64,000 nucleotides of DNA. Source: Dehalococcoidia bacterium. Its GTDB lineage: Bacteria > Chloroflexota > Dehalococcoidia > SHYB01. The notes under the pieces were generated by a model. That model saw nothing but the letters and a program-made list of their open reading frames with translations, was not told where the DNA came from and did not search any database. The stretch lies in NCBI GenBank assembly GCA_965248515.1, contig CBDFJU010000003.1, positions 975,254 through 1,039,253 of the forward strand. The letters are read 5' to 3'. Below, piece after piece: positions 5,283 to 22,310 of the stretch; position 1 is the stretch's first letter; each line of letters starts with the position of its first letter. Made by a program: the position numbers and the translations under genes.

Positions 5283-5301
5283 TCTCAGGTGGACCCCATC
5301 A

Positions 5302-6518: not shown

Positions 6519-6597
6519 GTCCTGCTCCTTCTTTCCGTCCTATTTTAGGAGCGGGACTCTCTCTTAGCCACCTGTCCGAATTTTGGGGTCCACCTCA

Positions 6598-7504: not shown

Positions 7505-7556
7505 AGACCCATATTGACGGATTCACCCGGCCCTTGACGAGGGGGGTATCCCCCAA

Positions 7557-7802: not shown

Positions 7803-7935
7803 CGAGGCCCCCCTTTTGGTGCCGCACTGTTAGGCAACTACTTTTTCTTGCCAGCGTTATCCGCGGCCTTGCTCTTGTCGTTGTACGCCTTCTGCAGACC
7901 TGGTGCACTGTCAATGCCCTTGCCAGGGACGCCGG
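7775..7935 (-). repeat. ~160 bp direct repeat, copy 1: shared 3' coding tail plus 3'UTR of secreted-protein gene A.
   Basis: Near-identical to 9258-9425: ggagccccgccggtggttgacgaggcccccc.tttggtgccgcactgttaggcaactactttttcttgccagcgttatccgc.gccttgctcttgtcgttgtacgccttctgcagacc... Confidence 0.7.
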
Positions 7936-8855: not shown

Positions 8856-9002
8856 TACACTAAGCCGTAGGGCGGTTCCCCGCCTTGCGATGGCCGTTTC
8901 TGACGTTGTGACGCCTCCATCATGTACCCTCCGAGCCTCAGCTGTAGCAAAATCTCCGACGCCTCATGTAGGCGCGAAGAATAACAGCAAAGCCATCGGA
9001 TC

Positions 9003-9255
9003 ACATCACCCGAACGGGTGAGTTTTGAGACCAGGTTCACCTCGGCATGGAAGACGCTATCTGGTGGGGCCCACCCACGCTCAACCTCCTCGCGCCGGTC
9101 CCCAGGTCCGCCGGTACTCGCCTTCGCCGCGCCGCCCTAGACCTTGGGCCCTCGCCGCCTCGGCGCGGGAGCGCTGGCAGCTGTTGAAGGACCGGCGGCG
9201 ATCACTAGACCTGGGGGCGATCTGGGCGGTAGAGGCTCTGCACCTTTGACAGACA
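9003..9255. repeat. Conserved non-coding element R1 (~250 bp). One of three related copies.
   Basis: Shares blocks with R2 and R3: atcacccgaaNgggtgag hairpin (GNRA-like loop), cctcgcgccg.tcccca, gccttcg.cgcgccgccct, gctggcag.tgttgaaggaccggcggcg..ca.tggacctg. Confidence 0.6.
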
Positions 9256-9257
9256 CA

Positions 9258-9425
9258 GGAGGAGCCCCGCCGGTGGTTGACGAGGCCCCCTTTTTGGTGC
9301 CGCACTGTTAGGCAACTACTTTTTCTTGCCAGCGTTATCCGCAGCCTTGCTCTTGTCGTTGTACGCCTTCTGCAGACCCGGCGCATTATCTAAGCCTTCG
9401 CCAGGAACGCCACTATCTTTCAGGA
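9258..9425 (-). repeat. ~160 bp direct repeat, copy 2: shared 3' coding tail plus 3'UTR of secreted-protein gene B.
   Basis: See copy 1 at 7775-7935. Confidence 0.7.
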
Positions 9426-10050
9426 TTTCGGCCTTGCCCGCTTCTGGGTCCACAAAAGTTCTGAAATCGAGGTCATAACCGCCATTGAACCAGCTAGGAG
9501 ACTCAAACCTTGTGTAGCCATCGCCAGCCCCGTAGGGGTTGCCAATACCAGCTCCTAATGCGTAGAACCCACCTGCAACGGGTTGCCGCAGCACGATTGC
9601 CAACACTTGTCCGGCGCTAACGCTGACCCCAAAGCCACTTACATCAATACTGAGGAACGGCGGCGGGCTGCCAGAGACGTTGACGGACACGTCCGCAGCC
9701 GGGACCGTGACGCTCGCCAACGTATCCGAATCGTCCTCGATGGGAGCCCCCCCGGTTGTGCGGCGAACATCGACCAGCAATGGTGCTCCGCCGATCCTCC
9801 CGGCCCTCACCTGGACCTCCGTCAGAAGTCCATCCAGTCCGACTGTGAACGTCTGGGCTGCATCTGCTCCTCCCCCAACGATAGGTCCAATAGTACCGCT
9901 ATCGAACTCCTGGTCGAGCTGAGACGCTGCGTGCACAACTCCGGTGCTCCAGCTCTGAGTGAGGAGAGCCCCTGCCAGCAGCAGTGCCAGCAGAATCCCC
10001 ATTGCCCTCTTCGACCTTGTGATCGCGGTTGTCACGATTCCCTCCACCAC
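9316..10050 (-). CDS. Secreted hypothetical protein (gene B). Shares its C-terminal tail with gene A.
   Basis: Sec-type signal (RSKRA n-region, ILLALLLAGALL h-region, VHA|AS). Gly/Ser/Val-rich. Ends ...PGLQKAYNDKSKAADNAGKKK. Confidence 0.6.
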   Translation of the reverse strand: MVEGIVTTAITRSKRAMGILLALLLAGALLTQSWSTGVVHAASQLDQEFDSGTIGPIVGGGADAAQTFTVGLDGLLTEVQVRAGRIGGAPLLVDVRRTTGGAPIEDDSDTLASVTVPAADVSVNVSGSPPPFLSIDVSGFGVSVSAGQVLAIVLRQPVAGGFYALGAGIGNPYGAGDGYTRFESPSWFNGGYDLDFRTFVDPEAGKAEILKDSGVPGEGLDNAPGLQKAYNDKSKAADNAGKKK

Positions 10051-10110
10051 TCCAGAATTGCTTCCATCCCCGTGTCAGCGAGTGCGAATCTGGGCAAGGT
10101 ATACCACGGA

Positions 10111-10370
10111 TGCCATGGCGACGCATCACCCGAAAGGGTGAGCTCGGACGATTGGCGCGGTAGCGCCGCCTGGCAAGGCCGCCATCGGCCTCGACGTCCT
10201 CGCGCCGCTCCCCAGTCCGCCACTAGCCGCCTTCGACGCGCCGCCCTCGCCCCTGGCCTCGTCGCCTGGGCGTGGGAGGGCTGGCAGTCGTTGGAGGACC
10301 CTGGCGACCATTGGACCTGGTGACTTCGCCCTCGTTGACGCCTAGGGCTATCCTGGCCACATGAGGTGAG
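10111..10370. repeat. Conserved non-coding element R2, between divergent genes B (-) and C (+).
   Basis: Aligns with R1 and R3. Ends ...ttgacgcctagggctatcctggccacatgaggtg about 20 nt before the gene C ATG. Confidence 0.6.
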
Positions 10371-10388
10371 ACTGAAGGCCCTGCACAC

Positions 10389-11477
10389 ATGGCTTGGTAC
10401 GACGAAGTAAATGCTACCTGGAAGCAGGTCGGCCTCGAAGTAGGAGCTGAGTTCCAGTTCCAGAGAAGCCATGGAGTTCCGAGTATCCGGAGGAAGGGGA
10501 AACGCGCACATATTTACGAGGGGAAGCTAGTCCGAAGAACAGAGGAGTGGACCCTCACGCTGGAATACAAAGCGGTGGCGGAAATCGAATACGACGACTT
10601 CAACGAGTTCCACACCACGACCACGATGAAAGCTGGTGCGAACACGGAGAACGCTCACACCTGGATCGGCAGTCGTGGCGAACGAGTGTTTCTGAAGGAA
10701 GTGTCGAAGGAAGAAGCCCCGAGGCTCTTGCGGGCATTGATGGGACCCAATTGGATGCTCCCGATCAAGGATCATGACGAGTTGGTGGCCTTGTTCAGAA
10801 GTTCTGAAGATACTCTGGCGGAGCTAGAAAACCGAGAAGAATCGTCAGGCCCCGAAACGGAACGGGCCGAACGTCGGAGAGAACTGCTCGATGACACTAG
10901 ACGGCTGTTGAGCGCTAGGGTCGTTAAACATGAAAAGGAAGCAGCTGATGAGGACCAGCGGCTGCGCGACTGGCATATGGTGCGCAAAGGGAAACTTCTC
11001 GATGAAGCCCGGAGGCTGTGCGTTAGGTTTGCCGGCTTCGGGATGGATGCCCGAGTCTTGGAGCGAGCTCCCGCTCCGGACGACAAAGATTCGGTGTATG
11101 GGTGGATCGAGATACCCGAAGGCCCGATACGGTGGGTATTGGTGAACGACGAGCCTCAAGAGTTCTTGACTTGCTGGATGGTGCCCGATCCGCGAATCAA
11201 ACTCGACTCTCCGTTCATTCTGGTCAATTCAAGCCCTGTGAAGTCGCGTCGCTTTTTGGGGCGCGTGACAGGAATCAGGTGGACCAGTTCCGATGCCGCG
11301 CTTGAGCCGACGGGGTTCAGCCAGCGCGTCGCAGCCACACTCGATGACGCTACGGCTGCTACTCAGCGTGAAGTGTCAAGTAAAGCCGTCGGTTCATGGG
11401 CTGAGACAGACCCGGCCCGTGGATGTTGGGCGATCCTAAATGACAAGGGCACGACGAAGTGGACAGGCGCTCTTTGA
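10389..11477 (+). CDS. Hypothetical protein (gene C). Its C-terminal region shares a GPIRWV...PDP domain with the 11558 gene.
   Basis: Long ORF with conserved R2 upstream. No recognisable motifs except similarity to the neighbouring paralog. Confidence 0.55.
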   Translation: MAWYDEVNATWKQVGLEVGAEFQFQRSHGVPSIRRKGKRAHIYEGKLVRRTEEWTLTLEYKAVAEIEYDDFNEFHTTTTMKAGANTENAHTWIGSRGERVFLKEVSKEEAPRLLRALMGPNWMLPIKDHDELVALFRSSEDTLAELENREESSGPETERAERRRELLDDTRRLLSARVVKHEKEAADEDQRLRDWHMVRKGKLLDEARRLCVRFAGFGMDARVLERAPAPDDKDSVYGWIEIPEGPIRWVLVNDEPQEFLTCWMVPDPRIKLDSPFILVNSSPVKSRRFLGRVTGIRWTSSDAALEPTGFSQRVAATLDDATAATQREVSSKAVGSWAETDPARGCWAILNDKGTTKWTGAL

Positions 11478-11557
11478 CAGTACTATCAGGCAATTGCCGA
11501 CGCCTTGCTGGCGATGCCCATGCCCGGTAAGGAGTAGTCGGCGGACCGAAGGGAGAT

Positions 11558-12220
11558 ATGGTCTTGTTTGGCAGGCTCAAAGAGAAGTTGCGAAATCACG
11601 CCAGGGATGAAGTATGTGCAGCTCTCGAAGCTGTAGGTGTCCAGGCGAGGATGGCTCCCCGCGGCCATTCCGAAGAAGAAATCACGCGGGGTCATGGAAA
11701 ATCCTTCGGTGTCATCGATGTAGCTGCAGGACCCATCCGCTGGGTCGGTGTCAAGAGTCAACGTGAGGACAGTGGTGATTACGACATCCCTGATCCCATG
11801 GTCTGGTACACGGAGTATGGTGTTCCAGATTCCAGGCTTGGTCCTAGCTTTCCAGAGGTACGCATTGCATCACAGAAAACTTTTAGCGTTTTTCCTTGGG
11901 GAAAGTGGAAACATTTCGTGCCGCACCCAGGAAAAGACGTTGACGAGATGTTCACAGGCTATGACTTTGGTCTAGGGGTAATTGGTCGTCTGTCCATCGA
12001 TGTGTCGCTGCGTGAACCCATCAGGGAATCCCGTCGGATAGAAATAGAGGCGTACCCGAAACATCACTGTTGGGTAATATCAAGTCGCTACGTGAATGAC
12101 GGTTTCGACATGCCTCGGATGTGGAAGGGTCGGACAGTTGCGCCCTCACCTCAACAATGGGATGCCTACCAGGCGATAGCCCGCCATCTGCTCGAAACTC
12201 CGGTTCCACTTAATACATAG
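11558..12220 (+). CDS. Hypothetical protein, paralogous domain to gene C.
   Basis: GVIDVAAGPIRWVGV...DIPDP vs gene C WIEIPEGPIRWVLV...MVPDP. Confidence 0.5.
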   Translation: MVLFGRLKEKLRNHARDEVCAALEAVGVQARMAPRGHSEEEITRGHGKSFGVIDVAAGPIRWVGVKSQREDSGDYDIPDPMVWYTEYGVPDSRLGPSFPEVRIASQKTFSVFPWGKWKHFVPHPGKDVDEMFTGYDFGLGVIGRLSIDVSLREPIRESRRIEIEAYPKHHCWVISSRYVNDGFDMPRMWKGRTVAPSPQQWDAYQAIARHLLETPVPLNT

Positions 12221-12329
12221 GGGGCTGTGCCTATCTTCGCTAACCCGGGTGGCGGAGCCCCACTAAAAAGCTGAAGGCCACATAAGTTCGTATCTTCCCC
12301 CTTGCCCGGGGAGACGTAGCAGTTCGGCG

Positions 12330-12532
12330 GTAATGATACGCGGCTCGCCCCACCCTCGAAGTCGCCGCTGACCCTTGCGACGTCCTTGCTCAGCTCCGCC
12401 GTGTTCGTGACCGAGCCCTTGGCCTCGCCGCCTAGGCGCGGGAGCACTTACAGTGGTTGAAGGACCGGCGGCGTTCATTGGACCTGACCGCTCCATACGT
12501 TGACGCCGTGGCTATCCTTGCCACATAAGGTG
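12330..12532. repeat. Conserved non-coding element R3, upstream of the 12561 gene.
   Basis: Core ...ggcgcgggagcacttacagtggttgaaggaccggcggcgttcattggacctga...ttgacgccgtggctatccttgccacataaggtg aligns with R1 and R2. Confidence 0.6.
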
Positions 12533-12560
12533 CTTTTCGCCGATGCAGGTTGCTCGTTAG

Positions 12561-13223
12561 ATGTCTAGCTCCCGCGACTCAAAAGCCGATCGTGCTTCAG
12601 CAGATAAGGCGTTGGAAGGGGCGCAGCTGCTTGCTGCGGGCGACTATCAGGGAGCTATCGCCGCTTGTAACGAGGCCATCAAGTTATACCCAGGAAGCGT
12701 AGGCGCGCACCGTACCCTGGTAGAAGCATACCGGCGTCTGGGCGAGAACATCCCAACACACGCGGCCGGTGATGCTTTCGAGGAAAGACCAGCAGATTTG
12801 TCGCCTTTTCTTTCATCCGACGTGGGGGGAGGCATCTTCGTTGGGCTATTGATCATAGTTATCGGGGTTGTTGCGGCGCTGGTGAGTGGTTCGGGATGGC
12901 TCTTGTTACTAGTTGGAGGGTTCGGGGCGTTTGTTCTGCTATGGAGTATCTGGGACGGAATCAGAATGAAACAAGACATATCCTCCGGTTCGGTTGAGCT
13001 GCATGGAACGCTTAGCCGCTGTGGCGTCCTTGCCGGCAGCCGCCGTGGACCTGGCCGAACCGACGGCCTCAGCGTCGCCTCTCGACGCGCCTCGCAGACA
13101 CCACCGGAGCGGCAATCTTCATCAGCCCTGGAGTACTTGCCAATGTCGGAATCGCCGATGACAATTGCGCCTCGGGAACAGGAGCATGGCCGCGACTGCG
13201 CTGAACCTTCTTCCGCCGGGTGA
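12561..13223 (+). CDS. TPR-like N-terminal domain protein with two transmembrane helices.
   Basis: AIAACNEAIKLYPGSVGAHRTLVEAYRRLGE (TPR-like), then GGIFVGLLIIVIGVVAALV and WLLLLVGGFGAFVLLWSIW hydrophobic helices. Confidence 0.5.
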   Translation: MSSSRDSKADRASADKALEGAQLLAAGDYQGAIAACNEAIKLYPGSVGAHRTLVEAYRRLGENIPTHAAGDAFEERPADLSPFLSSDVGGGIFVGLLIIVIGVVAALVSGSGWLLLLVGGFGAFVLLWSIWDGIRMKQDISSGSVELHGTLSRCGVLAGSRRGPGRTDGLSVASRRASQTPPERQSSSALEYLPMSESPMTIAPREQEHGRDCAEPSSAG

Positions 13224-13233
13224 GCATTTGGTG

Positions 13234-13788
13234 ATGAGCTCTTCACTTGAAATCCCAGGACCACCGAAAATCTTGTTCCTCGACAGCACTGATGCCGGCG
13301 ACGGCCAGGCAAGTGATCTAGCGCAACGCATCAGCTCGGCCATCAGGCGTCAGGGAGTTGACCTGTCCGGGCCCTTCTCCGCTACCGACCCCCAGGCGAC
13401 CACTGACCTTCTCAGCAGGCATGCAGACGCCAATTGTCTCTTCTTCTTGGCGGGAGGGCCCGAAGACCTATCGAGCATCTCTCGGACGATGTCTTCTGCG
13501 GACCGATCTGGCAGCGATGCCGCACCCGCGCCTAGATTAATCGCCATCTATACGTCCCAGAACCCAGAAGTTCCTGAGAGAGAACGCGTAGTGGGTCCAC
13601 ATGCTCCGGGCACCATAGTAGTGATCTCGAAGCCTGTCATGTCCTCGAAGGAGGCGACGCTTTTCTTCGCCGAGTTCTTCGGAGAGTTGCATACTCATTG
13701 TCCGGATGCCATCAGCGTGGCCATGGTGCGGTTTTGCTTCGTGAAGGCGAGCCGACTCGCGCCGAAGAAGGCCGCCGTATGGACGTGA
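13234..13788 (+). CDS. Hypothetical protein.
   Basis: ATG just after the upstream stop. KILFLDSTDAGDG...LFFLAGGPEDL. No assignable family. Confidence 0.4.
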   Translation: MSSSLEIPGPPKILFLDSTDAGDGQASDLAQRISSAIRRQGVDLSGPFSATDPQATTDLLSRHADANCLFFLAGGPEDLSSISRTMSSADRSGSDAAPAPRLIAIYTSQNPEVPERERVVGPHAPGTIVVISKPVMSSKEATLFFAEFFGELHTHCPDAISVAMVRFCFVKASRLAPKKAAVWT

Positions 13789-13874
13789 GAACCAACTAAA
13801 GACCATTCTCAACCCTGCGGCGGGTTTGGGCACGCAGGGCTTCTGTCGCCGGCATTCCACGCCTCCCAGACGTC

Positions 13875-14013
13875 CCACGCCGTCGTTTCGCGGGGGTCGC
13901 GGGGGTCTAACCCGCCCCTCCATCGACGACGAAAATGTTCATCGCTCTCCTCTTATGTAGTACTGGCAGAGTTTCGGAATTTCGAGGGAGCTGGAATAAC
14001 CCCCGCGACCCCC
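13875..14013. repeat. 18 bp perfect inverted repeat (cgcgggggtcgcgggggt / acccccgcgacccccgcg) enclosing a ~100 bp AT-richer spacer, immediately 3' of the primase-like gene.
   Basis: Read directly from the sequence at 13875-13892 and 13996-14013. Spacer is tgttcatcgctctcctcttatgtagtactggcagagtttcggaatttcgag. Confidence 0.55.
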
Positions 14014-14018
14014 GCGAG

Positions 14019-15545
14019 CTATCCATCTCCAACACCTTTGGTCTCTGGCGGGGGTTCCCGGCGCTCCAACTTCCACGTGGCGACACCCGCGTGGGCGTCC
14101 TCTCCAGCCCTATGGATGCGGTAGGGGTCGATCACACGGCCCTTCATCCTGCCCAGCGCCTGACCGAAACGAGTTCGAGCAGCAAGGTCGTCACGTCCTT
14201 GCCAGAGCTCGAGGAGCAGTTCCCGACGGGTGACGATGCCGAACAAGTCTCTCGCGGGGATCTCGGTATCGCCGAACTCTTCCCACCACGCCGTGCAGAA
14301 CTCGCGCCACGGCTCGATCTCGGCTTCGGCGGCCTCGTAGACCCGATCCACGTTGCCGAGGAAGCCGCCGACTCCGACCACTTCGAGGATGCCGCCCATG
14401 ACCCTGGCCCACTTCTCGAAGCTTCCCAGGGACCGTCGGCCCGCTGGCTGGCCCGCTGCGAACCAGGCTCTGATCAGAGTAAGCGCCGCCCAGATCAAAT
14501 CGCCGCGGTGATCCAGGGCCCAAGCGCGAAGGTCCGGGTGCTTGAAGTCCTCCCGCTCCCACGGCTTTTCCATCGAGGGGTCTAGGCGAATCGCGATTGT
14601 GCGCCGGGCAACCTCTACCGATAGAGAAGGGTTGTTGGCCGTGGCGATCCATATCGCGCCGTTGGGTAGCGTGACGGTACGGCTGGCCCCAAGAAGCCGA
14701 TCCTCCCAGAGGGAGGCGGTCAACGCAGCAGAGAGAGCACCTGAGTCCAGGCCCCGCCGGACATTGTCGATCAGGATGAACTGAGGACCCTGCAGCAGTT
14801 TGGACGTGATCCTCTTTCGTGTCTCGTCCTCATCCCGGGCTTCAGTCATGACGGGGAGATTGCCACCTGTCGCCGGGATCGTCAGCACGTCGGCCAGTAG
14901 TCCTTTCCCACTCCCGGGAGTGGCCGACTCGATGAGGTGCAAAGGGACGAGGTCTATCAACGTCCTCACAAAGGGCAAGAGGAGCAAGGAAACAGCGTGG
15001 GCCCGGTCAGCGTCGCTGGCGAAGGGGAAGTCGCCCAAGAGGTCATCCATGATGAGCCGGAGCGCCGCAGCGATGTCGTCTTGGTCTGGCTCGTCGGGGA
15101 CGTCGGGGACCTGCACCCAGGTGAGCGGGTCGAGATAAAAACTCGTGCCAGGGTCGTAGCCGGGCCGGAGCGTGAGGTCGCCGTTGGGAGCGAATACTGG
15201 AGCCCCGCTGACGCCTCGGAGCCGCGGCACCGGTTTGACCTTTCTCACAAGCATGTCGTCGAGCACGTCGTTCGGGGGTCGAGCCGGCACCAGGCCTCCT
15301 TGTCGGGTCCACTTCATGAAGTCGGCAATCTTGTCGAGGTGGCTCTTCAGGATGACCTTCTTGACCTCTCGCATTCTGGTGTGGTCTCCATCACCGGCGC
15401 GTGTCAGGTCGACCAATAGCTCCCCGTGTCGGAAGAGCGTCGGCGGATCGTTGGTCTCTTGAACTGTAAGCCAGGTAACGGAAGCGAGGTCGCGCAGGAA
15501 CTCGCCGGTAATCTCGATCTGCCTTCGAGGCGGAGGGGTCGTCAT
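14019..15545 (-). CDS. P-loop NTPase of the phage/plasmid primase C-terminal (P4/D5/VirE-like, SF3 helicase-type) family.
   Basis: Walker A ESATPGSGKG, Walker B-like FILIDNV, N-terminal ~180 aa non-P-loop domain. RBS GAGGAGGACC. Confidence 0.6.
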   Translation of the reverse strand: MTTPPPRRQIEITGEFLRDLASVTWLTVQETNDPPTLFRHGELLVDLTRAGDGDHTRMREVKKVILKSHLDKIADFMKWTRQGGLVPARPPNDVLDDMLVRKVKPVPRLRGVSGAPVFAPNGDLTLRPGYDPGTSFYLDPLTWVQVPDVPDEPDQDDIAAALRLIMDDLLGDFPFASDADRAHAVSLLLLPFVRTLIDLVPLHLIESATPGSGKGLLADVLTIPATGGNLPVMTEARDEDETRKRITSKLLQGPQFILIDNVRRGLDSGALSAALTASLWEDRLLGASRTVTLPNGAIWIATANNPSLSVEVARRTIAIRLDPSMEKPWEREDFKHPDLRAWALDHRGDLIWAALTLIRAWFAAGQPAGRRSLGSFEKWARVMGGILEVVGVGGFLGNVDRVYEAAEAEIEPWREFCTAWWEEFGDTEIPARDLFGIVTRRELLLELWQGRDDLAARTRFGQALGRMKGRVIDPYRIHRAGEDAHAGVATWKLERREPPPETKGVGDG

Positions 15546-15560
15546 CGCTGGTCCTCCTCG

Positions 15561-15863
15561 TCATGGTTGATGGGTTCGCCTTCTCTTGGCTTGCCGTTGC
15601 CGGATGTCGGATTCCTCTTCGTGCTCCCGTCGGCTGGCCGCCTTCAGGGCCAGATTGACGGCCCTGCGAAGGCGCCCAATAGGGTCCTCGACCTCGATAT
15701 GCTCCAGCGAGACCTCCGGCTGCTTGTCTTGCCCATCACGACGGGGCTTCGAATCGTGGTCCATACACGAATTTTCGCAGAAGCGATGTTTGTACAAATC
15801 CCACGTCTGAACCTGTTGGGACTCCGAATGTCGAGACTCGCGCGGTTTCCTCGCAGTCGCCAT
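15561..15863 (-). CDS. Small basic hypothetical protein, co-oriented and 13 nt upstream of the primase-like gene.
   Basis: 100 aa, Arg/Lys/Glu-rich. Operon-like spacing. Confidence 0.35.
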   Translation of the reverse strand: MATARKPRESRHSESQQVQTWDLYKHRFCENSCMDHDSKPRRDGQDKQPEVSLEHIEVEDPIGRLRRAVNLALKAASRREHEEESDIRQRQAKRRRTHQP

Positions 15864-15935
15864 CAGCCCCTGTTAGAATCCGACGCATCCGGGCTAAGGC
15901 GTTTGCACAACCCGGTGTCAAGGGAGCTTGGGAAA

Positions 15936-16865
15936 ATGGGAAGCCGTCAGTCGATTACGCCGCAACAGCGCCTAGAGGTTGAGGAGTCGCTTCGGTTTGC
16001 CGGGTCCGTCAAAGCCGTGGCACGCAAGACTGGCCTGAGCTTGTCGTCGGTCTACAACATCAGGAGGACGATGAGGAGCGAGTCCAGCCCGGCCTTCGAA
16101 GAACACCGCCAAGGGATCGAAGCAAGAGCTCTGTCGGTGACAGAATCGCTGGCCTCATTCCCGCCCACTCCAGGAAGACTGTTATCCACTGACCGCTGGG
16201 GGAATACACATCGGTGGAAGGCCCAGGCGGCGATCAGCACTGTCCAAGGCGACGCCGATGGCTTCACGGCGTTGGTTCAGCATCTCCGGCCCCTTAAGTT
16301 CGAGTCTTCCTGGGATTCGTTCTGTCGAGGGTTGAAGGATTACCAGGAAGAGGCAGGAGAGCTAGAAGCCGGGGTCCAGGAAAAGGTAAACGGACTCGGT
16401 ATCGAAAGCCTGAGCCAAGGGGCCGTGGTCGGCCTGTTCCGTATCGCAGCGGACCAAGCCTGTTTCGACTCCGAGAGCTACGGTGGCGACACAGACGACG
16501 CGATGGGGGAGTTCCCTTACTTCTGGGAGAGGCCAAGGGCCGTCAGCGAGGACGGTGCCACAATCATCTACCAGATAGGTCGGCTAAAGGGCGCACAACC
16601 CGTGGAAAGGCCAACTTCAGCTTTCACGTTGTGGATTGGCGAGCATCAAGCAGGTCGAGCCCATGGAGACCAACAGGCCAGGGAAGCCGTCAAGAAGCTG
16701 GGCGACGCGGCTGAGGCGCTGATCGCCGACAACACTGGCGATGAGGTCGCTGACAGATACTTCGATCTGTTGAAGGGACGTGACCGGCTTAGCCAACTGT
16801 TGGGGCCATTCAAGGTCAAGAAGTGGGCCGCCGATGGCCGTTGCGAGTTGTGTCCGAGCAGCTGA
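15936..16865 (+). CDS. HTH-domain protein (resolvase-type HTH_7/HTH_23 N-terminus) with a C-terminal domain of unknown function.
   Basis: ITPQQRLEVEESLRFAGSVKAVARKTGLSLSSVYNIRR. Divergent from the primase operon. Confidence 0.5.
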   Translation: MGSRQSITPQQRLEVEESLRFAGSVKAVARKTGLSLSSVYNIRRTMRSESSPAFEEHRQGIEARALSVTESLASFPPTPGRLLSTDRWGNTHRWKAQAAISTVQGDADGFTALVQHLRPLKFESSWDSFCRGLKDYQEEAGELEAGVQEKVNGLGIESLSQGAVVGLFRIAADQACFDSESYGGDTDDAMGEFPYFWERPRAVSEDGATIIYQIGRLKGAQPVERPTSAFTLWIGEHQAGRAHGDQQAREAVKKLGDAAEALIADNTGDEVADRYFDLLKGRDRLSQLLGPFKVKKWAADGRCELCPSS

Positions 16866-16986
16866 TGAAGGCCCCTTGCTTCACCAGTCTTGTCCTAGGA
16901 TGCTGCTGACAGCTTCAGTTGCAATCTGGTGGAATACCCTTTAGTATCCTCATTGGGATCATTGAATACATTGAGCCAACCCCTGC

Positions 16987-17844
16987 GTGAGTCTGATGCC
17001 GAAATCTTTGACGGCGGTCACTTTTGACGATTTCGTGACCAACGTCGATGGCACCAATGGCCACCGGCGCTTCGACCTATCGGACTACGAGTTCGTCACC
17101 CCAGGCGGGATGGTACTGCCCGCCTTAGCCATTCGCCAAGCTTGCTCGTCCGGCACCACTCCCGTGCTCACTGTCCCAAACGCCAACATGCGGTCGTACC
17201 TCGCCCGAGCCGGATTTCTTAAGCACCTAAGCGATAGAGCCCAGATTGAACCGCCGCACACATCGAGTGAGGACCTTCCCTTTGATGTTCGCCGGGGCCA
17301 GAACCCGCTCTTACTCGAGATCACAGTGCAAACCGAGGCCGGCGACCTTCCTGAAATAATTGACAGAGTGATATGGGTTCTTCGTCGACGCATGAGCTAT
17401 CGAAAGTCTGACGCTTTTGACATAGGCATCGTGATCTCGGAGATTTGGCAAAACGCGTTCGACCACACTAATGGTCCGGTCACGACAATCGCGGCGATGC
17501 AAGTCTACGGCTCGCCGGGGAACGGTCGTCTAGAGATGGCGATCGGTGACGATGGGGACGGTGTGTTAAGCAGTCTCAGAAGGAATCCGACTCTGCCCCG
17601 CTTCGCCACCGACACGAAAGCGATTCGAGATGCCATCAAGCTGAACGTGTCAGAGCACGACGATCGGACGCGAGGCCATGGCCTCGCGCTGTTGGTCGAC
17701 AAAGTGTTCTCCCATGACGGTGCGGTTACCATACGCTCCGGGCGTGGGAAAGTGCACATCCGGATGGATAAGGGGCAGGGTTGGGCTTATCAGGTTCCTC
17801 ACCTTAGCGGCACCCAAGTCGTGGTTAATTTACCCACAGAATAG
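16987..17844 (+). CDS. GHKL-superfamily ATPase (HATPase_c, anti-sigma-factor/RsbW-like Ser kinase fold) with an N-terminal ~130 aa sensor-like domain.
   Basis: N-box-like IVISEIWQNAFDHT, G1 AIGDDGDGV, G2 GHGLALLVDKVF. A sigma70-like promoter lies upstream (TTGCAA-17-TAGTAT). Confidence 0.65.
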   Translation: MSLMPKSLTAVTFDDFVTNVDGTNGHRRFDLSDYEFVTPGGMVLPALAIRQACSSGTTPVLTVPNANMRSYLARAGFLKHLSDRAQIEPPHTSSEDLPFDVRRGQNPLLLEITVQTEAGDLPEIIDRVIWVLRRRMSYRKSDAFDIGIVISEIWQNAFDHTNGPVTTIAAMQVYGSPGNGRLEMAIGDDGDGVLSSLRRNPTLPRFATDTKAIRDAIKLNVSEHDDRTRGHGLALLVDKVFSHDGAVTIRSGRGKVHIRMDKGQGWAYQVPHLSGTQVVVNLPTE

Positions 17845-17861
17845 CGTCAAGGAGGAGCAAT

Positions 17862-18410
17862 ATGCCTGTAGCCGTCGGACCGAAGTTCCGACTCGCGGAG
17901 TACGGTCGGCAACTGTGGACCCGAGAGAGGGCCAGAGAGATCCGAGGTGAACTTGAAGCCCTGCTTCAGGCCGTTGAATCCGGAACAGTCGTCGTTTTGG
18001 ATTGCACTGATGTCGAAGTGTTTGACTATTCATTTGCGGCCGAATTGTTCGGTGTGACTCTCTTGAAACTACCCATTGAGTATCCGGACCGTTATCTGAT
18101 AATCGCGGGTCTCACTCCTTATACAAGAGAGAACCTCCATGCAGCGTTGGAAGCGGGAGGGGTGATGGCACTTGAGCGGAAGTCCTCGAAGGTCGAACTC
18201 CTAGGCAAGTTCTCCCCAAGCGACGAGGAGACTCTCGCTACGCTCCGCAAGTCTCGCCAGTCCCTAAGCGCGGCTGACGTGGCAAGGAAACTAAATATCA
18301 AACTGACCGCGTCGAACGAGCGCCTCGTAAAGTTGGCGCGAGCTGGCCTGGTTCGCCGCGAACGAGCCCTGGAAGGCCGAGCTCAGCAGCTCTACGCTGC
18401 AGTCCCCTGA
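17862..18410 (+). CDS. STAS-like (DUF4325-type) domain fused to a C-terminal winged HTH.
   Basis: VVVLDCTDVEVFDYSFAAELFGV (STAS-like) and LSAADVARKLNIKLTASNERLVKLARAGLVRRE (wHTH). RBS AAGGAGGAG. Confidence 0.6.
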   Translation: MPVAVGPKFRLAEYGRQLWTRERAREIRGELEALLQAVESGTVVVLDCTDVEVFDYSFAAELFGVTLLKLPIEYPDRYLIIAGLTPYTRENLHAALEAGGVMALERKSSKVELLGKFSPSDEETLATLRKSRQSLSAADVARKLNIKLTASNERLVKLARAGLVRRERALEGRAQQLYAAVP

Positions 18411-18433
18411 GCATTTCCGAGAGGCAGGCCCCC

Positions 18434-18461
18434 TTGACTCTATCAGCGAGAAATGAGTCAA
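18434..18461. promoter_or_regulatory. Perfect 7 bp inverted repeat TTGACTC-N14-GAGTCAA overlapping the predicted promoter of the Ubl/E2/JAB/E1 operon. Candidate operator.
   Basis: Read directly from the sequence. The 5' half is also a -35-like TTGACT. Confidence 0.45.
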
Positions 18462-18524
18462 TATCTTCAATGAGGCCAGTGCGTCTAATGCGCGATGGTT
18501 CTCAATCCGTTGAGGAGTAAAGTA

Positions 18525-18758
18525 ATGCCAGATCAAGGACCAAAGTACCATCTGAACATCGAAGGCACCCTATACGAATGGCCCGAAGGTACGATCACCG
18601 TCCCCGAGATTCGTGAGCTCGGCAGCTTGCCGGCAGACCTTCCGGTAATCGAGATCGACCTTCAGACCAACGAGGAGCGGACGCTGGCTGAGGACGAAAT
18701 CGTCGAACTGAAACCGGGCAAGGGCTTTTCCAAAAAAGTCGGTTGGAAACGTGGATGA
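18525..18758 (+). CDS. Ubiquitin-like beta-grasp protein (Multiubiq/BilA-like) ending in Gly.
   Basis: 77 aa MPDQGPKYHLNIEGTLYEWPEGTITVPEIRELG...KKVGWKRG*. C-terminal Gly. GAGGAG RBS. Its stop overlaps the next start (ATGA). Confidence 0.6.
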   Translation: MPDQGPKYHLNIEGTLYEWPEGTITVPEIRELGSLPADLPVIEIDLQTNEERTLAEDEIVELKPGKGFSKKVGWKRG

Positions 18759-19147
18759 GTGCTCGAATTGCTGATGAGCTTCGGCTGCTCAAGAGCTGGT
18801 ATACGCATCTAGAATACTTAGAGGACGGACATTGGGTTCGGATCCAGGGTTATCCGGTCCCTGACTCGATATGGGCAGTCAATCTAGTCGAGGTCTGCTT
18901 CCAGATCCCAGAAGCTTTACCGGGCCAAGGCCCCTACGGATTCTATGCGCGTCCCGAAATGAGGCTAAGAACCGGAAGCCCGCCGCCTAATAACTACAAG
19001 TACCCCGTTCCAACACCGTTTGGGGATGACTGGGGCAAATTTTCTTGGCAGCTGGAGCCGTGGCGGCCTGGAGCCAAGCCATCTGAGGGCAGCAACATAC
19101 TCGACTTTGCACGGTCGTTCTATGACCGCTTTCGTGAGGGGGTATAG
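18755..19147 (+). CDS. Prokaryotic E2-like (UBC-fold) protein (BilB-like).
   Basis: Operon position between the Ubl and JAB genes. Single conserved Cys (NLVEVCFQIPEALPGQGPYGFYARP). ~130 aa. Confidence 0.5.
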   Translation: MSARIADELRLLKSWYTHLEYLEDGHWVRIQGYPVPDSIWAVNLVEVCFQIPEALPGQGPYGFYARPEMRLRTGSPPPNNYKYPVPTPFGDDWGKFSWQLEPWRPGAKPSEGSNILDFARSFYDRFREGV

Positions 19148-19495
19148 ATGGCGGTAGCCGTCCGGTTCCCGACGCCCTTGTTTGATCGTGTGTGGGATCA
19201 CCTACTCCTCTCCGACACGGAGGAGGCGGCATTCCTCATGGCTGATTATCGCCTCAATGATCAGGGGGGTATATTTGTCGTGTCCGATTTGTATCTAATC
19301 GGACCTGACGACTTTACGTTCCAGTCGAGTTTTCATCTAAGCCTCGCGGACGAAACACGGGTCGCTGTAATCAAGTGGGCGTGGCAACTGGGAGGGTCTC
19401 TGATTGAAGTTCATGCTCATCGGGGGCCGCAGCAAGCCATGTTCTCACATAGCGATATGTATGGCTGTCGATGTCCAGCGATTATGTCCGCCTAA
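19148..19495 (+). pseudogene. JAB/MPN (JAMM) domain protein, N-terminal part (BilC-like), interrupted by IS insertion.
   Basis: JAMM-like motif E-x-HAH-x8-S-HS-D (LIEVHAHRGPQQAMFSHSD). Ends at a TAA that lies inside the IS target duplication. Confidence 0.6.
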
Positions 19496-19496
19496 G

Positions 19497-21062
19497 TGGT
19501 CAGGGAAAATGTCCATCTAGGCCGCTGTCATACCATCGGACTGTGATACGCGGGACCTGCCCCTGGTGCGCATCATGGGCGGGCTCTTGGCTTCGGCGTA
19601 CTTGCGGACCGTGTTCCTGTGGATGCCCAACTCCCTGGCGATTGCCCGAATGGCGAGGCCCCGAAGCTTAGCCTGCTGCACGGCCTTCCACCGGACCCTC
19701 TGTCGCGGCGTGGGTTTCCTGCGTGGCGATGCCGGAGGCTTGCAAACTCTGCCGCCGCCGTTCAATGTGGCGCTGTCGGCCTCGATGGCGTCGAGGGATG
19801 CCAAGCTCTCCTTGGAGTGGCTGCCCACGCCGTTGACCCTACGCTCAAGGCCGGGGCCATATCGGAGAGGACCATTGGAGGCACGGAGAACTCCAGGGCG
19901 CGGCGGCGCCTCCTGTGTGGGGATCGTGCGTCCCCGGTACTGCACGAGGAGCTGACCGTCCAGGCCCTCATGGACCTCCAGCTGCGCTCCGGCGTAGCTA
20001 GGCCGCTCCTTACCAGGCAGCAGCTGCAAGGTACGCCAGTTGTACTTGACGGTGTTGTCCCTGGCCACCTTGCGGCGGTGCTTGAAGCAGAGTATCTGGT
20101 CCAGGGACACCGATGACTCCATAGAGCGGTAAGCAACGCTTGAGTGCTCTGCCGGAACCCCGAACTTCTCGTTGAAGCGCGGCAGGAAGCGGTGCAGGAC
20201 TTCATTGGCCTCGTCGATGGTGGTGACGCCCGCCAAGCGCAGCTCGGTCACCAGCCGGTCCTGGAATGTCCCCGCCGTCCGCTCGACCCGGCCCTTCGCC
20301 TGCGGTGACCTGGCGAATATCTGGCGTATCCCCAGCTCCTCCATGGCGCGGGCGAACTGGGTTGGCCCGGCCGGCTTCTGGCGAGGCTCTCCAGTATGCT
20401 TGAAGACCGCGTGTCGGTCGCTGTAGACGGCCAGCGGTATCCCGCATTGCCGGATCAACCCCTCCATGAGAAGGAAGTAGCCGCGGGTGTCCTCCTCCTG
20501 GCTGAACAGAGCGTCAGGCACAGTGCCGGTGGCGTCGTCCACGGCCAACAGCAGGACGAACCGGGGTCCTTGTTCCCCCAGCCACCGATGGTGGCTCCCA
20601 TCTATCTGCAGCAGCATCCCTTCTTGGGCCATGCGTTTGCGCCGGACACGGTGTCTGGGCGGCCGGCGGCGGCGGGGGCTGTCCACGCCGGCGCTGACCA
20701 GGATGCGGCGCACCGTAGAGCGGCTCAGGTCGATCCCCTCCCGTTCCATCAACAACTCGGTCAGATGCGTATGGTTCGTTCCAGCGTAGCGAGTGCGGGC
20801 CAGCTGCACCACGTAAGTCATCTTGGTCTCCGTCGTGGTGTTGGCCGGTCGGCGGCCACGATTCCCGTGGGCGAGTGCGGCGGCGCCCTCCTTCCTCTAG
20901 GCCGCCAGAATACGCCTCATGTGGCGTTCGCTCACTCCCAGGACCTCGGCCGCCTGACATACCGGCACCTGATCTGCCAGAACGCTGTTGAGCACCTGAA
21001 GTCTCGTCTGCTCCTTCTGCGTCAATGTCACTCCTTCCATGGGATGACATTTTCGCTGACCA
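19497..21062 (-). mobile_element. IS481/ISNCY-like insertion sequence (~1.57 kb) with ~17 bp inverted repeats, inserted in the JAB gene.
   Basis: Ends TGGTCAGGGAAAATGTC... and ...GACATTTTCGCTGACCA. Flanking taag|IS|(g)ttag looks like a 4-5 bp duplication with one mismatch. Confidence 0.7.
19517..21040 (-). pseudogene. DDE transposase (IS481/ISNCY-like) with an in-frame TAG (minus strand, 20899-20897) where the family consensus has Tyr.
   Basis: N-terminus MEGVTLTQKEQTRLQVLNSVLADQVPVCQAAEVLGVSERHMRRILAA*RKEGAAALAHGNRGRRP..., then DDE core LLQIDGSHHRW...LLLAVDDATG...AVYSDRHAVF. Confidence 0.65.
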
Positions 21063-21063
21063 G

Positions 21064-21309
21064 TTAGCTACTGACATAATCGTAGAACAACGACAGTATG
21101 GCCTCCAAGAATTTGTACCTCACGCCCGGTGGCAGCTCGGTGGGCGTCCGTATGCTGCCCTGGTCGTAGCCGAGGATTCGTACGATGGTCTCGCCTGGGT
21201 TGATGAATCGGGAAATCCTCAGGCAATCGAGATCATCATGATCGACGACAAGGTCCTAGATGCCACGGGGCTCACTTTCACAGCGCTGAAGAAGCGTCGC
21301 TATGAGTAG
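21064..21309 (+). pseudogene. JAB/MPN domain protein, C-terminal part, displaced by the IS. Overlaps the E1 start.
   Basis: In frame with the N-terminal part once the IS and one duplication copy are removed (…PAIMSA-L-ATDIIVEQRQYGLQEF...KKRRYE*). Its stop overlaps the E1 ATG. Confidence 0.55.
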
Positions 21310-22157
21310 CGGTGACCGTTATGGCAGACAAATCGCTCTCTTCGGGCGCGAGGGTCAAGAGCGCCTCGAGCGTGTAGGAGTCATGATCGTAGGGCTCGGT
21401 GGTCTCGGATCTCATATCGCTCAGCAACTATCGTTTCTTGGGGTACAGCGATATGTGCTTATTGACCACGATACCGTCACCACGTCAAATCTAAATCGGC
21501 TCATCGGCGCCACTGATGCGGACGCGGACCTCATGACTCCGAAAGTTGAAGTTAGTCGCCGCCTAATCGAAGCTGTTCAACGGGATTCTCAAGTCACGAT
21601 CATCAGCGAGGAGCTGAACAAAGGATTGGTCAGTGCACAACGCGCCGTTCAAGCATCGGACGTTGTTTTTGGCTGTGTTGACGATGACCTCGTCCGACTG
21701 CACCTGACAGAGCTGGCGTCAATTCATGGCAAGCCGCTCCTCGACTCAGCAACTGACGTGGGAGCGAACGGGACCTCTCTTTGGTACGGAGGGCGGGTAG
21801 TCTTCGCTGCTGACGGGAAGCGCTGCCTTTCGTGCCTTGGACTCCTCGATCAACAGCTGATGGCCCGGTCAAGCATGACATCCGAACAGAAGGCGATCGA
21901 CGACAGCATTTACGGTGTTCCCACCGACGCGCTTGAAGGGACAGGCCCTTCTGTTGTCTCGATCAATGGCCGTCATCGCCTCCATCGCAGTCACCGAGTT
22001 CGCGGTTTGGGCGACTGGTCTCAGGCGCCCTTGGCCTCACTCTATTTATCGCGCCGACCTCGGAATTGTGACAAAGAGCATGGACGCGCCCGCTGAGGAC
22101 TGCTTTTACTGTAAGACACTTTGGGGCACCGAAGCCGACGATAAAAAGTCCAACTAG
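21302..22157 (+). pseudogene. ThiF/MoeB-type E1-like activating enzyme (BilD-like) with an apparent frameshift near 21985.
   Basis: DRYGRQIALFGREGQERLERVGVMIVGLGGLGSHIAQQLSFLGV...NLNRL, first CxxC (CLSCLG). After ...GPSVVSING the conserved continuation VIASIAVTEFAVWATG...CFYC... is in the +1 frame. Confidence 0.7.
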
Positions 22158-22310
22158 TCACGATCGATGAGATGCTAACTCCCGTTCCAGCACGAAGCGG
22201 AACTGGGGTTTTGAGAAACCGCGCTCACAAGACCTGTCAAGTATCATTGGCACACGAATCGCCAATCCCCTTGCTATAATCCGCACACTCCGTGGACGCC
22301 GCGAGACCCA

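What the first reader, a model, noticed from the sequence alone, without database searches (positions are those of the whole stretch)
16987..18470. GHKL kinase-like ATPase plus STAS-wHTH fusion as a candidate partner-switching regulator, with a perfect inverted repeat in the downstream promoter
RsbW-type GHKL kinases phosphorylate STAS-domain antagonists. Here the STAS-like domain is fused to a winged HTH. A 7 bp perfect palindrome TTGACTC-N14-GAGTCAA sits on the predicted promoter of the Ubl/E2/JAB/E1 genes. This suggests phosphorylation-controlled transcriptional gating of the conjugation system. I am not aware of this arrangement being described.
Basis: inference. Interest (0 to 1): 0.7.

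Follow-up and report, generated by a model that had tools for sequence, protein, structure and literature searches.

The report
CapK/CapS kinase-repressor pair, decayed cargo
These two genes are a divergent member of the CapK/CapS kinase-plus-repressor switch described in 2026, which turns on neighbouring bacterial ubiquitin-like defence operons after stress; here the operon it should control is broken by a transposon and a frameshift, so the finding is real but no longer new.

Summary
16987-17844 encodes a GHKL kinase-like protein and 17862-18410 a STAS-wHTH protein. TTGACTC-N14-GAGTCAA sits at 18434-18461, ahead of Ubl/E2/JAB/E1 genes.

The arrangement is already published: CapK (kinase) and CapS (STAS-wHTH repressor), Chambers et al., EMBO J 2026 (PMC13373217). 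Evidence that the window pair belongs to that family:
- The kinase matches E. roggenkampii CapK (BLASTP 1e-10; hhalign 98.5%) and keeps the catalytic Asn (N156 = N218).
- The CapS-like family profile matches the CapS crystal chain 9z71 over its full length (E 2.8e-8).
- S57 aligns with the proven phospho-site S54 and is Ser in 102 of 110 relatives.

Differences from the published pair:
- The kinase lacks the N-terminal HTH. It also lacks the Trp and Lys residues implicated in ssDNA sensing.
- capK and capS are 17 nt apart, so there is no separate capS promoter.
- About 90% of roughly 100 related loci carry a different operator, T[AT]CA-N10-TG[AT]A plus T[AT]CA-N1-TG[AT]A. The window has neither.

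The window's own palindrome is unproven: an inverted repeat of this kind arises by chance in 7-11% of comparable segments.

The cargo operon is decayed. A 1.6-kb IS splits the JAB gene and the E1 gene has a frameshift.

Verdict: new member of a known kind; low interest.

The parts
16987..17844 (+). capK-like gene. It encodes an alpha/beta N-terminal domain plus a GHKL Ser kinase domain and has no N-terminal HTH. The probable start is ATG 16996.
   Evidence: ORF. HATPase_c_2 hit at 26.3 bits. BLASTP against E. roggenkampii CapK gives E 1e-10, with N156 aligned to N218. hhalign gives probability 98.5%, E 2.3e-15. Invariant N-box, G1 and G2 motifs. AF2 model plus Foldseek hits to SpoIIAB/RsbW.
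17845..17861 (+). 17-nt capK-capS spacer carrying the AGGAGG ribosome-binding site. There is no room for the separate capS promoter and narrow operator seen in other capKS loci.
   Evidence: Sequence. Compare the 25-33-nt spacers with TTGACA-N17/18-TACACT promoters in homologous loci.
17862..18410 (+). capS-like gene: STAS domain (about residues 1-115, phospho-acceptor S57) fused to a wHTH domain (about residues 117-182).
18434..18461 (.). Perfect inverted repeat TTGACTC-N14-GAGTCAA. It is the candidate CapS operator. The left arm contains a -35-like TTGACT.
   Evidence: Sequence. Chance rate 6.5-10.8%. Not an RNA hairpin of note, z -0.04. No sigma-70 promoter called. Not the clade's operator type.
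18495..18758 (+). Ubl gene (Multi_ubiq, 87 aa). The protein ends ...KRG, and its stop codon overlaps the E2 start codon (ATGA).
   Evidence: Pfam; sequence.
18755..19147 (+). E2-like gene (Prok-E2_E, BubB-like). It has the conserved Ser in an FSWQ motif where Type I Bub has WSRH.
   Evidence: Pfam; alignment.
19148..19464 (+). 5' part of the JAB/JAMM peptidase gene, containing HxH...SxxD. It is interrupted just after the motif.
   Evidence: The restored 174-aa ORF reads through in frame.
19465..21096 (-). Insertion sequence of 1632 bp. It has imperfect terminal inverted repeats of about 50 bp, a 5-bp target duplication TATGG (19460-19464 and 21097-21101), and a transposase gene at 19517-20821 on the minus strand.
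   Evidence: Pfam HTH_23 and a weak rve_3 hit.
21097..21309 (+). 3' part of the JAB gene.
21302..22157 (+). E1 (ThiF) gene with a +1 frameshift at about 21971 (an extra C in GGCCGTC). The 5' frame ends at 22096 and the 3' frame ends at 22157.
   Evidence: Repairing the frame raises the ThiF score from 116.6 to 123.6 bits and extends the profile match from 1-166 to 1-208.

Best explanation
The two genes are a divergent, HTH-less member of the CapK/CapS 'controller of adjacent pathways' module. They sit on a low-GC island directly upstream of a Bub-related Ubl/E2/JAB/E1 operon.

Proposed mechanism:
1. CapS (STAS-wHTH) binds as a dimer to an operator at the promoter in the 84-nt gap before the Ubl gene and represses it. 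This is inferred from homologues. The TTGACTC-N14-GAGTCAA repeat is the only candidate site.
2. A stress signal activates CapK. In E. roggenkampii the signal is ssDNA from DNA repair. Here the signal is inferred, and the residues implicated in ssDNA sensing are not conserved.
3. CapK phosphorylates CapS on S57, at the N-terminus of STAS helix alpha-2. The site and the catalytic residues are shown by alignment and by the model; the reaction itself is inferred.
4. Phospho-CapS dimers dissociate and leave the DNA, and the operon is derepressed. This is inferred from the homologous system.

capK and capS appear to be co-transcribed, so the separate autoregulated capS promoter of other loci is missing.

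In this genome the regulated operon is no longer functional: an IS lies in the JAB gene and the E1 gene is frameshifted.
For: Published experiments on CapK/CapS cover repression, palindrome binding, S54 phosphorylation, loss of the dimer and activation by ssDNA (PMC13373217).

Homology of the kinase:
- A against CapK WP_001567866.1: BLASTP E 1e-10 over A 40-263 / CapK 106-340.
- Profile comparison: probability 98.5%.
- N156 aligns with N218. E152, D188xGxG192 and R229GxGL233 are invariant.
- The fold matches SpoIIAB, RsbW and UsfX.

Homology of the repressor:
- The B family profile matches CapS chain 9z71 at E 2.8e-8 over 20-178 / 23-179, and V. cholerae CapS (9z72) at 5e-4.
- S57 falls in the column of S54 and is Ser in 102 of 110 sequences, Thr in 2.
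- S57 caps helix 56-73 in a model of pLDDT 93.

Gene order and context:
- The capK-like gene lies immediately upstream of the capS-like gene in 14 of 14 genome loci and in 62 of 87 loci overall.
- Cargo downstream of the pair is Bil-like, Bub-like or YegP-first, as in the paper.
- Related loci carry operators with the same N10 and N1 spacings as the experimentally mapped CapS sites. 87 of 95 loci have one downstream of capS and 80 of 99 have one upstream. Background is 8 matches to each motif in 156 kb.
Against: No binding, phosphorylation or expression data exist for this locus.

The window's palindrome has 7-bp arms 14 nt apart (21 bp centre to centre). That does not match the 14-bp spacing that fits the CapS dimer. 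It is not conserved anywhere, and a repeat of this kind arises by chance in 7-11% of comparable segments.

No clear -10 element is present.

CapS DNA-contact residues N145 and K151 align with A150 and V156, and the wing is two residues shorter.

CapK W68 aligns with S6 (Lys in the clade), and K237/K239 align with G178/G180. ssDNA sensing may therefore not apply here.

Pairwise similarity of B to CapS is weak: E 0.001-0.025.

The cargo is inactivated, so the circuit may be a relic.
Confidence: 0.8

Rival explanations
1. The pair is CapK/CapS-like, but TTGACTC-N14-GAGTCAA is not the CapS operator. It would be a chance repeat or the site of another factor. CapS would bind elsewhere, or the regulatory link has decayed along with the operon.
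For: The chance rate is 6.5-10.8% and the half-site is not enriched. The spacing differs from the N10 and N1 sites of E. roggenkampii CapS and of about 90% of related loci. There are no close orthologues to show conservation. No sigma-70 promoter is called.
Against: It is the only inverted repeat with arms of 5 bp or more in the 84-nt gap. Its left arm is a 5/6 -35 hexamer. It lies where related loci place their operator, a median of 18 nt after the capS stop there and 23 nt here. Other divergent family members also lack the canonical site.
Confidence: 0.4
2. A is a classical RsbW/SpoIIAB-type anti-sigma factor and B is its anti-anti-sigma antagonist, controlling a sigma factor by partner switching.
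For: The GHKL fold of A is closest to SpoIIAB, RsbW and UsfX. B has a STAS domain with a Ser at the canonical position.
Against: No sigma factor or PP2C phosphatase was found among the neighbouring ORFs scanned. B carries its own DNA-binding wHTH. A has an extra N-terminal domain and is homologous to CapK. The pair travels with variable defence-type cargo, not with sigma genes.
Confidence: 0.03
3. The pair is a VapKSC-like toxin-antitoxin module, in which the STAS protein inhibits a toxin until it is phosphorylated.
For: Like VapK, the kinase lacks the HTH and has the STAS-like plus GHKL architecture.
Against: There is no PIN/VapC gene next to the pair. B has a full wHTH rather than VapS's short C-terminal helix. 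B aligns with CapS over both domains.
Confidence: 0.02

Closest known systems
CapK/CapS of Enterobacter roggenkampii and Vibrio cholerae (Chambers et al., EMBO J 2026, PMC13373217; PDB 9z71, 9z72, 9z73)
   Same: The gene order is the same: kinase, then STAS-wHTH, then an immune-type operon on the same strand. CapS is the same length (182 aa) with the same two domains. The phospho-Ser falls in the same alignment column. The GHKL N-box Asn is kept. The cargo is a ubiquitin-like conjugation operon, as in 236 of the 443 published loci.
   Different: - The kinase is 285 aa against 368 aa and has no N-terminal HTH.
- W68 and K237/K239, implicated in ssDNA sensing, are not conserved.
- Identity is only about 24% for the kinase; for CapS the similarity is detectable only at profile level.
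- There is no capK-capS intergenic promoter or narrow operator.
- The candidate operator has 7-bp arms with an N14 spacer, instead of TTAA-N10-TTAA.
- The wing is shorter and the predicted DNA-contact residues differ.
- The cargo is disrupted.
HTH-less capK/capS clade in soil and sediment metagenomes and MAGs
   Same: The kinase architecture and length are the same (278-342 aa, median 290). The proteins are 33-53% identical to the window's. The VEVFD[YF]SFA phospho-site motif is shared. The cargo is Bil-like or Bub-like.
   Different: The clade has a conserved TTGACA-N17/18-TACACT capS promoter. It also has T[AT]CA-N10-TG[AT]A and T[AT]CA-N1-TG[AT]A operators and a T-run after capS. The window has none of these.
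VapK/VapS/VapC (same paper)
   Same: The kinase is HTH-less, with a STAS-like domain plus a GHKL domain. It acts on a STAS-domain substrate with a conserved Ser.
   Different: VapS has no wHTH and inhibits a PIN toxin. No toxin gene is present here.
SpoIIAB/SpoIIAA and RsbW/RsbV partner-switching modules
   Same: The kinase fold is the same, and the STAS substrate is phosphorylated at the N-terminus of helix alpha-2.
   Different: Those systems act by releasing a sigma factor. Here the STAS protein is itself the DNA-binding repressor, and no sigma factor or phosphatase is encoded nearby.
CapH/CapP and CapW(BrxR) regulators of Bil, Bub and CBASS operons
   Same: They occupy the same position and play the same presumed role: stress-responsive derepression of an adjacent defence operon.
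   Different: The proteins and chemistry are unrelated. CapP cleaves CapH, and the WYL domain of CapW binds a ligand. Neither involves phosphorylation.
Type I Bub (6E.1) and Bil (6C) ubiquitin-like operons
   Same: The set is Ubl, E2, JAB peptidase and E1. The E2 belongs to Prok-E2_E and has the Bub-type Ser. The gene order is that of Bil.
   Different: The genes are separate rather than the BubAB and BubCD fusions. No BubE/DUF6527 is found anywhere in the window. The His of the S-x-H motif is replaced by Gln. The E2 is not BilB-like.

Membership tests
CapS | N-terminal STAS domain fused to a C-terminal wHTH, about 180 aa | tested here: met
CapS | Sequence homology to the crystallised CapS proteins | tested here: met
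   The family profile matches 9z71_A at E 2.8e-8 over both domains and 9z72_A at E 4.9e-4. A single-sequence search is only marginal, E 0.025; BLASTP gives 0.001.
CapS | Conserved phospho-acceptor Ser at the start of STAS helix alpha-2 (S54 in E. roggenkampii) | tested here: met
   S57 is in the same column as residue 54 of WP_001567865.1. That column is Ser in 102 and Thr in 2 of 110 sequences. S57 is invariant among the 13 closest homologues. The predicted helix spans 56-73.
CapS | Encoded immediately downstream of capK and upstream of an immune-type operon | tested here: met
   A 17-nt gap follows capK and an 84-nt gap precedes the Ubl gene.
CapS | Two palindromic operators with the same half-site: a narrow one (N1) before capS and a wide one (N10) before the cargo | tested here: not met
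   The window has one 7-bp inverted repeat with an N14 spacer and no site before capS. There are no T[AT]CA-N10 or N1 motifs in 64 kb. Actual binding cannot be tested with these tools.
CapS | DNA-contact residues N145, K151 and G169-G170 | tested here: not met
   They align with A150, V156 and G170-R171. The wing is two residues shorter.
CapS | Dimer that dissociates on phosphorylation, giving derepression | not testable with these tools
   This needs SEC-MALS, EMSA or reporter assays, or multimer modelling.
CapK | GHKL kinase domain with the catalytic N-box Asn (N218) | tested here: met
   N156 aligns with N218. E152, N156, H160, D188/G190/G192 and R229/G232/L233 are invariant. Foldseek hits to SpoIIAB and RsbW.
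CapK | Sequence homology to CapK | tested here: met
   BLASTP E 1e-10, 24% identity over 245 columns. hhalign probability 98.5%, E 2.3e-15.
CapK | N-terminal HTH domain | tested here: not met
   The ORF cannot extend upstream. It is 285 aa against 368 aa. CapK residues 1-65 have no counterpart. The clade's kinases have a median length of 290 aa. The paper reports that deleting the HTH has no phenotype.
CapK | STAS-like domain between the HTH and the GHKL domain | tested here: inconclusive
   A residues 40-115 align with CapK 106-190, and the model shows an alpha/beta domain. There is no profile similarity to the CapS STAS domain, and no fold search was run on the domain alone.
CapK | ssDNA-sensing residues W68, K237 and K239 | tested here: not met
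   W68 aligns with S6 (Lys in the clade). K237/K239 align with G178/G180. The N-terminal alignment is uncertain. VapK uses a Phe at this position, and F13/F16 are nearby candidates.
RsbW/RsbV-type partner switching | A cognate sigma factor and a PP2C phosphatase in the module | tested here: not met
   No such domains were found in the neighbouring ORFs scanned.
VapKSC | An adjacent PIN/VapC toxin, and a STAS protein with a short C-terminal inhibitory helix | tested here: not met
   The downstream genes are Ubl, E2, JAB and E1, and B has a full wHTH.
Type I Bub operon (cargo) | BubAB and BubCD fusions plus BubE (DUF6527) | tested here: not met
   The E2 is Prok-E2_E with the Bub-type Ser. However, all four genes are separate, and no BubE homologue is found in the window.
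Bil operon (cargo) | BilA_UBL, BilB-like E2 and BilD_N-type E1 | tested here: not met
   The window proteins hit Multi_ubiq, Prok-E2_E and ThiF only. There is no tblastn similarity to the Bil proteins of L003 or L004. Only the gene order matches.

The most novel reading that the evidence does not exclude
The HTH-less CapK clade lacks the Trp and Lys residues implicated in ssDNA activation, so it may respond to a signal other than ssDNA. Separately, the window's CapS has a shortened wing and a candidate operator whose half-sites lie 21 bp apart. It may bind DNA in an oligomeric mode different from the published interface-1 dimer. A related possibility is that the capK-less 'orphan' capS genes in front of Bil-like operons are controlled in trans or are constitutive repressors.
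Probability: 0.2. Interest if true: 0.45.

Novelty: new member of a known kind. Interest (0 to 1): 0.25.

Why it matters
That is reassuring for the scan, but it removes the novelty.

What remains useful:
1. CapK/CapS extends beyond the mostly proteobacterial set in the paper. An HTH-less clade is widespread in soil and sediment bacteria, with its own highly conserved operator (T[AT]CA half-sites at the same N10 and N1 spacings). This is independent comparative support for the published two-site model.
2. The window locus is a natural outlier. It has a single promoter, a different palindrome and lost ssDNA-contact residues, so it could show how specificity and input evolve in this module.
3. 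It shows a defence-type Ubl operon in decay while its regulators stay intact.

Tried and rejected
- PADLOC (2023) and NCBIfam gave no meaningful family for A or B. The only hits were partial: DrmA N-terminus and Csa3 wHTH. Both libraries predate the CapK/CapS description.
- Foldseek against the PDB did not return CapS, because that library stops at 2026-04-08. The sequence-profile search of the 2026 PDB copy found 9z71 and 9z72 instead.
- A literature search for 'DUF4325' was uninformative. The two 2023 Bil preprints mention only CapH/CapP or no regulators.
- Terminator or RNA-hairpin reading of the palindrome was rejected: z-score -0.04, and no terminator is called there.
- The exact 28-nt palindrome region is absent from metagenome contigs. 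No CapS relatives were found in viral contigs.
- No relative is closer than 53% identity in any collection. Conservation of this particular palindrome therefore cannot be tested.
- tblastn of homologous E1 C-termini against the frameshift region found nothing. The frameshift rests on the reading-frame pattern and on the extension of the Pfam ThiF match.
- The restored JAB protein has no Pfam hit at E 0.01. Its identity rests on the HxH...SxxD motif, its position in the operon, and 25% identity to the JAB of L016.
- Profile-profile comparison of A's N-terminal domain with the CapS STAS domain showed no similarity.
- The source organism could not be named.
- The sigma-factor partner-switching and VapKSC-type toxin-antitoxin readings were rejected for lack of the defining partner genes.
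Full report
**Observation.**
The window holds two co-directional ORFs, A (16987-17844, 285 aa) and B (17862-18410, 182 aa). They are separated by 17 nt that carry an AGGAGG ribosome-binding site. A hits HATPase_c_2 just below the Pfam threshold (26.3 against 27.4 bits). B hits the STAS-like DUF4325 above threshold (27.4 against 23 bits, residues 24-87) and several wHTH families (residues 117-182).

The perfect inverted repeat TTGACTC-N14-GAGTCAA lies at 18434-18461, in the 84-nt gap before the next gene. Downstream are a Multi_ubiq Ubl, a Prok-E2_E E2, a JAB gene and a ThiF E1. The description is therefore accurate.

The statistics of the repeat are weak:
- A perfect 7+7 repeat with a spacer of up to 20 nt occurs in 6.5% of shuffles of that gap and in 10.8% of random 84-nt windows of this sequence.
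- The 7-mer is not enriched.
- As RNA the hairpin is no more stable than shuffled controls (z -0.04).
- The sigma-70 scan calls no promoter there. Only the -35-like TTGACT is evident.

**It is a known system.**
A full-text search found Chambers, Rani, Min, Villa and Corbett, EMBO J 2026 (PMC13373217; preprint February 2026). They describe CapK, an HTH-STAS-GHKL kinase, and CapS, a STAS-wHTH repressor, in 443 loci. Of these, 231 lie upstream of Bub operons, 5 upstream of Bil operons and 75 upstream of CBASS.

Their findings:
- CapS binds a narrow (TTAA-N1-TTAA) and a wide (TTAA-N10-TTAA) palindrome.
- CapK phosphorylates CapS on S54. This breaks the CapS dimer and derepresses both capS and the downstream operon.
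- CapK is activated by ssDNA through W68, and K237/K239 line the predicted groove.
- Deleting the CapK HTH has no phenotype.
- A related HTH-less kinase, VapK, works with VapS and VapC as a toxin-antitoxin system.

**Membership of B.**
A profile of B and its 12 closest homologues matches the E. roggenkampii CapS crystal chain 9z71 at E 2.8e-8 over both domains. It matches V. cholerae CapS (9z72) at E 4.9e-4.

I fetched the E. roggenkampii locus (L005; CapK WP_001567866.1, 368 aa; CapS WP_001567865.1, 182 aa). This fixed the offset between the PDB chain numbering and the paper's numbering at +2.

I then aligned B with 108 full-length cluster representatives found by an index-free HMMER search, which returned 808 clusters at E 1e-3 or better and 284 at 1e-10 or better. 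In that independent MAFFT alignment the column of B S57 holds residue 54 of E. roggenkampii CapS. The column is Ser in 102 and Thr in 2 of 110 sequences.

**Membership of A.**
BLASTP against CapK gives E 1e-10 (24% identity, A 40-263 against CapK 106-340), with N156 aligned to the catalytic N218. hhalign of the A family against CapK gives probability 98.5% and E 2.3e-15. The N-box (E152, N156), G1 (D188xGxG192) and G2 (R229GxGL) motifs are invariant in 25 sequences. The AF2 model (pLDDT 87.2) matches SpoIIAB, RsbW and UsfX (TM-score on target up to 0.74).

**Differences from the published CapK.**
- A has no N-terminal HTH. The ORF cannot be extended upstream, and its relatives are 278-342 aa with a median of 290.
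- W68 aligns with S6, which is Lys in the clade. K237/K239 align with G178/G180.
- The domain preceding the GHKL domain is alpha/beta and aligns with the region the paper calls STAS. It shows no profile similarity to the CapS STAS domain. I leave that feature inconclusive.

**Comparative genomics.**
I collected about 100 related loci from look-ups of homologues, GTDB genomes (14 loci, all MAGs of Acidobacteriota, Planctomycetota, Nitrosospira, Endomicrobiales and others) and JGI metagenomes (80 loci). None exceeds 53% identity to B. None comes from viral contigs.

The capK-like gene is immediately upstream of capS in 14 of 14 genome loci and in 62 of 87 loci that have enough upstream sequence. 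The cargo is Bil-like, Bub-like, YegP-first, another E1-containing set or unclassified. This is the same pattern as in the paper.

The regulatory DNA is highly conserved across these phyla:
- Within 90 nt after capS, 87 of 95 loci carry T[AT]CA-N10-TG[AT]A. The consensus is TWCAKYACMTWCACTGWA, starting a median of 18 nt after the stop codon.
- In the 70 nt before capS, 73 of 99 loci carry T[AT]CA-N1-TG[AT]A, and 80 of 99 carry either motif.
- Background is 8 matches to each motif in 156 kb.
- The site before capS overlaps the -10 of a TTGACA-N17/18-TACACT promoter.

These are the same N10 and N1 spacings as the experimentally mapped CapS sites, with a different half-site.

**The window is an outlier.**
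It has none of these motifs anywhere in 64 kb, no T-run after capS, and no promoter between capK and capS. Its only candidate operator is the 7-bp repeat. The half-site centres are 21 bp apart, against 14 bp in the mapped sites.

Its CapS has a wing two residues shorter. It also has different residues at the positions the paper models as DNA contacts: A150 and V156 in place of N145 and K151. Eight other divergent loci also lack the canonical site, so operator turnover does occur in the family. The assignment of this palindrome to CapS nevertheless remains an inference. I put it at about 0.5-0.6.

**State of the cargo.**
- A 1632-bp IS (19465-21096) interrupts the JAB gene just after its HxH...SxxD motif. 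The IS has terminal inverted repeats of about 50 bp, a TATGG target duplication, and a transposase gene at 19517-20821 on the minus strand. Removing it restores a 174-aa ORF.
- The E1 gene changes frame at about 21971, where there is an extra C. The repaired protein raises the ThiF score from 116.6 to 123.6 bits and extends the match from profile position 166 to 208. A sequencing error cannot be excluded.
- The E2 is BubB-like, with the conserved Ser in FSWQ where Type I Bub has WSRH.
- There are no fusions and no BubE anywhere in the window. The operon is therefore a Bub-related four-gene variant, not a canonical Bub or Bil operon.
- The locus has 55.8% G+C against 64.2% in the flanking chromosome, which is consistent with horizontal acquisition.

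**Mechanism and verdict.**
The most likely reading (confidence 0.8) is a CapK/CapS-type switch. A CapS dimer represses the promoter ahead of the Ubl gene. CapK, on a stress signal, phosphorylates S57. The dimer falls apart and the operon is derepressed.

- Shown here: homology, architecture, catalytic and acceptor residues, gene order and the comparative operator pattern.
- Inferred: DNA binding at this palindrome, phosphorylation, the dimer switch and the identity of the signal.

The rivals, sigma-factor partner switching and a VapKSC-like toxin-antitoxin system, lack their defining partner genes. This is a new, divergent member of a known kind.

Noticed in passing
window 19465-21096 (target duplication 19460-19464 and 21097-21101): A 1632-bp insertion sequence has inserted into the JAB peptidase gene of the Ubl operon. 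It has imperfect terminal inverted repeats of about 50 bp, a 5-bp TATGG target duplication and a 434-aa transposase on the minus strand. There is only one copy in the window.
   Followed up: yes
window about 21968-21972: The E1 (ThiF) gene shifts frame at an extra C in GGCCGTC. Downstream sequence in the +1 frame continues the E1, including a C-terminal CFYC motif, to 22157. This is either a real pseudogene or an assembly error.
   Followed up: partly
loci L047, L060, L062, L065, L069, L092, L096 and 18 others: 25 of 87 related loci have a capS-like gene with its own TTGACA-N17/18-TACACT promoter and operator, but no capK-like ORF anywhere in the fetched DNA. For seven of these (L047, L060, L062, L065, L069, L092, L096) the fetched DNA reaches about 4 kb on each side of capS; for the other 18 it is shorter, in some cases only a few hundred bases upstream. 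Nine of the ten classifiable cases precede Bil-like operons. The published survey started from capK, so it would not have seen such 'orphan' capS genes.
   Followed up: partly
loci L001-L105, just upstream and downstream of capS: A conserved three-half-site operator with consensus TWCAKYACMTWCACTGWA: T[AT]CA, then a spacer, then T[AT]CA-C-TG[AT]A. It lies after capS, preceded by a T-run, and a narrow copy overlaps the -10 (TACACT) of the capS promoter. It is conserved across several phyla.
   Followed up: yes
L005 6529-6553 (E. roggenkampii, between capS and the Bub operon): Upstream of the published TTAA-N10-TTAA site there are inverted repeats TCAGT-N6-ACTGA and TCAGT-N14-ACTGA. They resemble the TTCAG...CTGAA half-sites of the HTH-less clade. 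This may be coincidence.
   Followed up: no
window 18755-19147 and the whole window: The E2 is Bub-type, with a Ser where canonical E2s have Cys, but its motif is FSWQ rather than WSRH. No BubE/DUF6527 gene is found anywhere in the window. The Ubl ends in ...KRG, and its stop codon overlaps the E2 start codon (ATGA).
   Followed up: partly
window about 5000-22200: This looks like a low-GC variable island: 55.8-59% G+C against 64.2% further on. It holds an IS3-family transposase (5302-6237, minus strand) and many ORFs without Pfam hits. These include a 508-aa protein with a P-loop-like motif (14019-15545, minus strand) and a long ORF with an HTH-like stretch directly upstream of capK (15426-16865). 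There are no tRNA genes in the window.
   Followed up: partly
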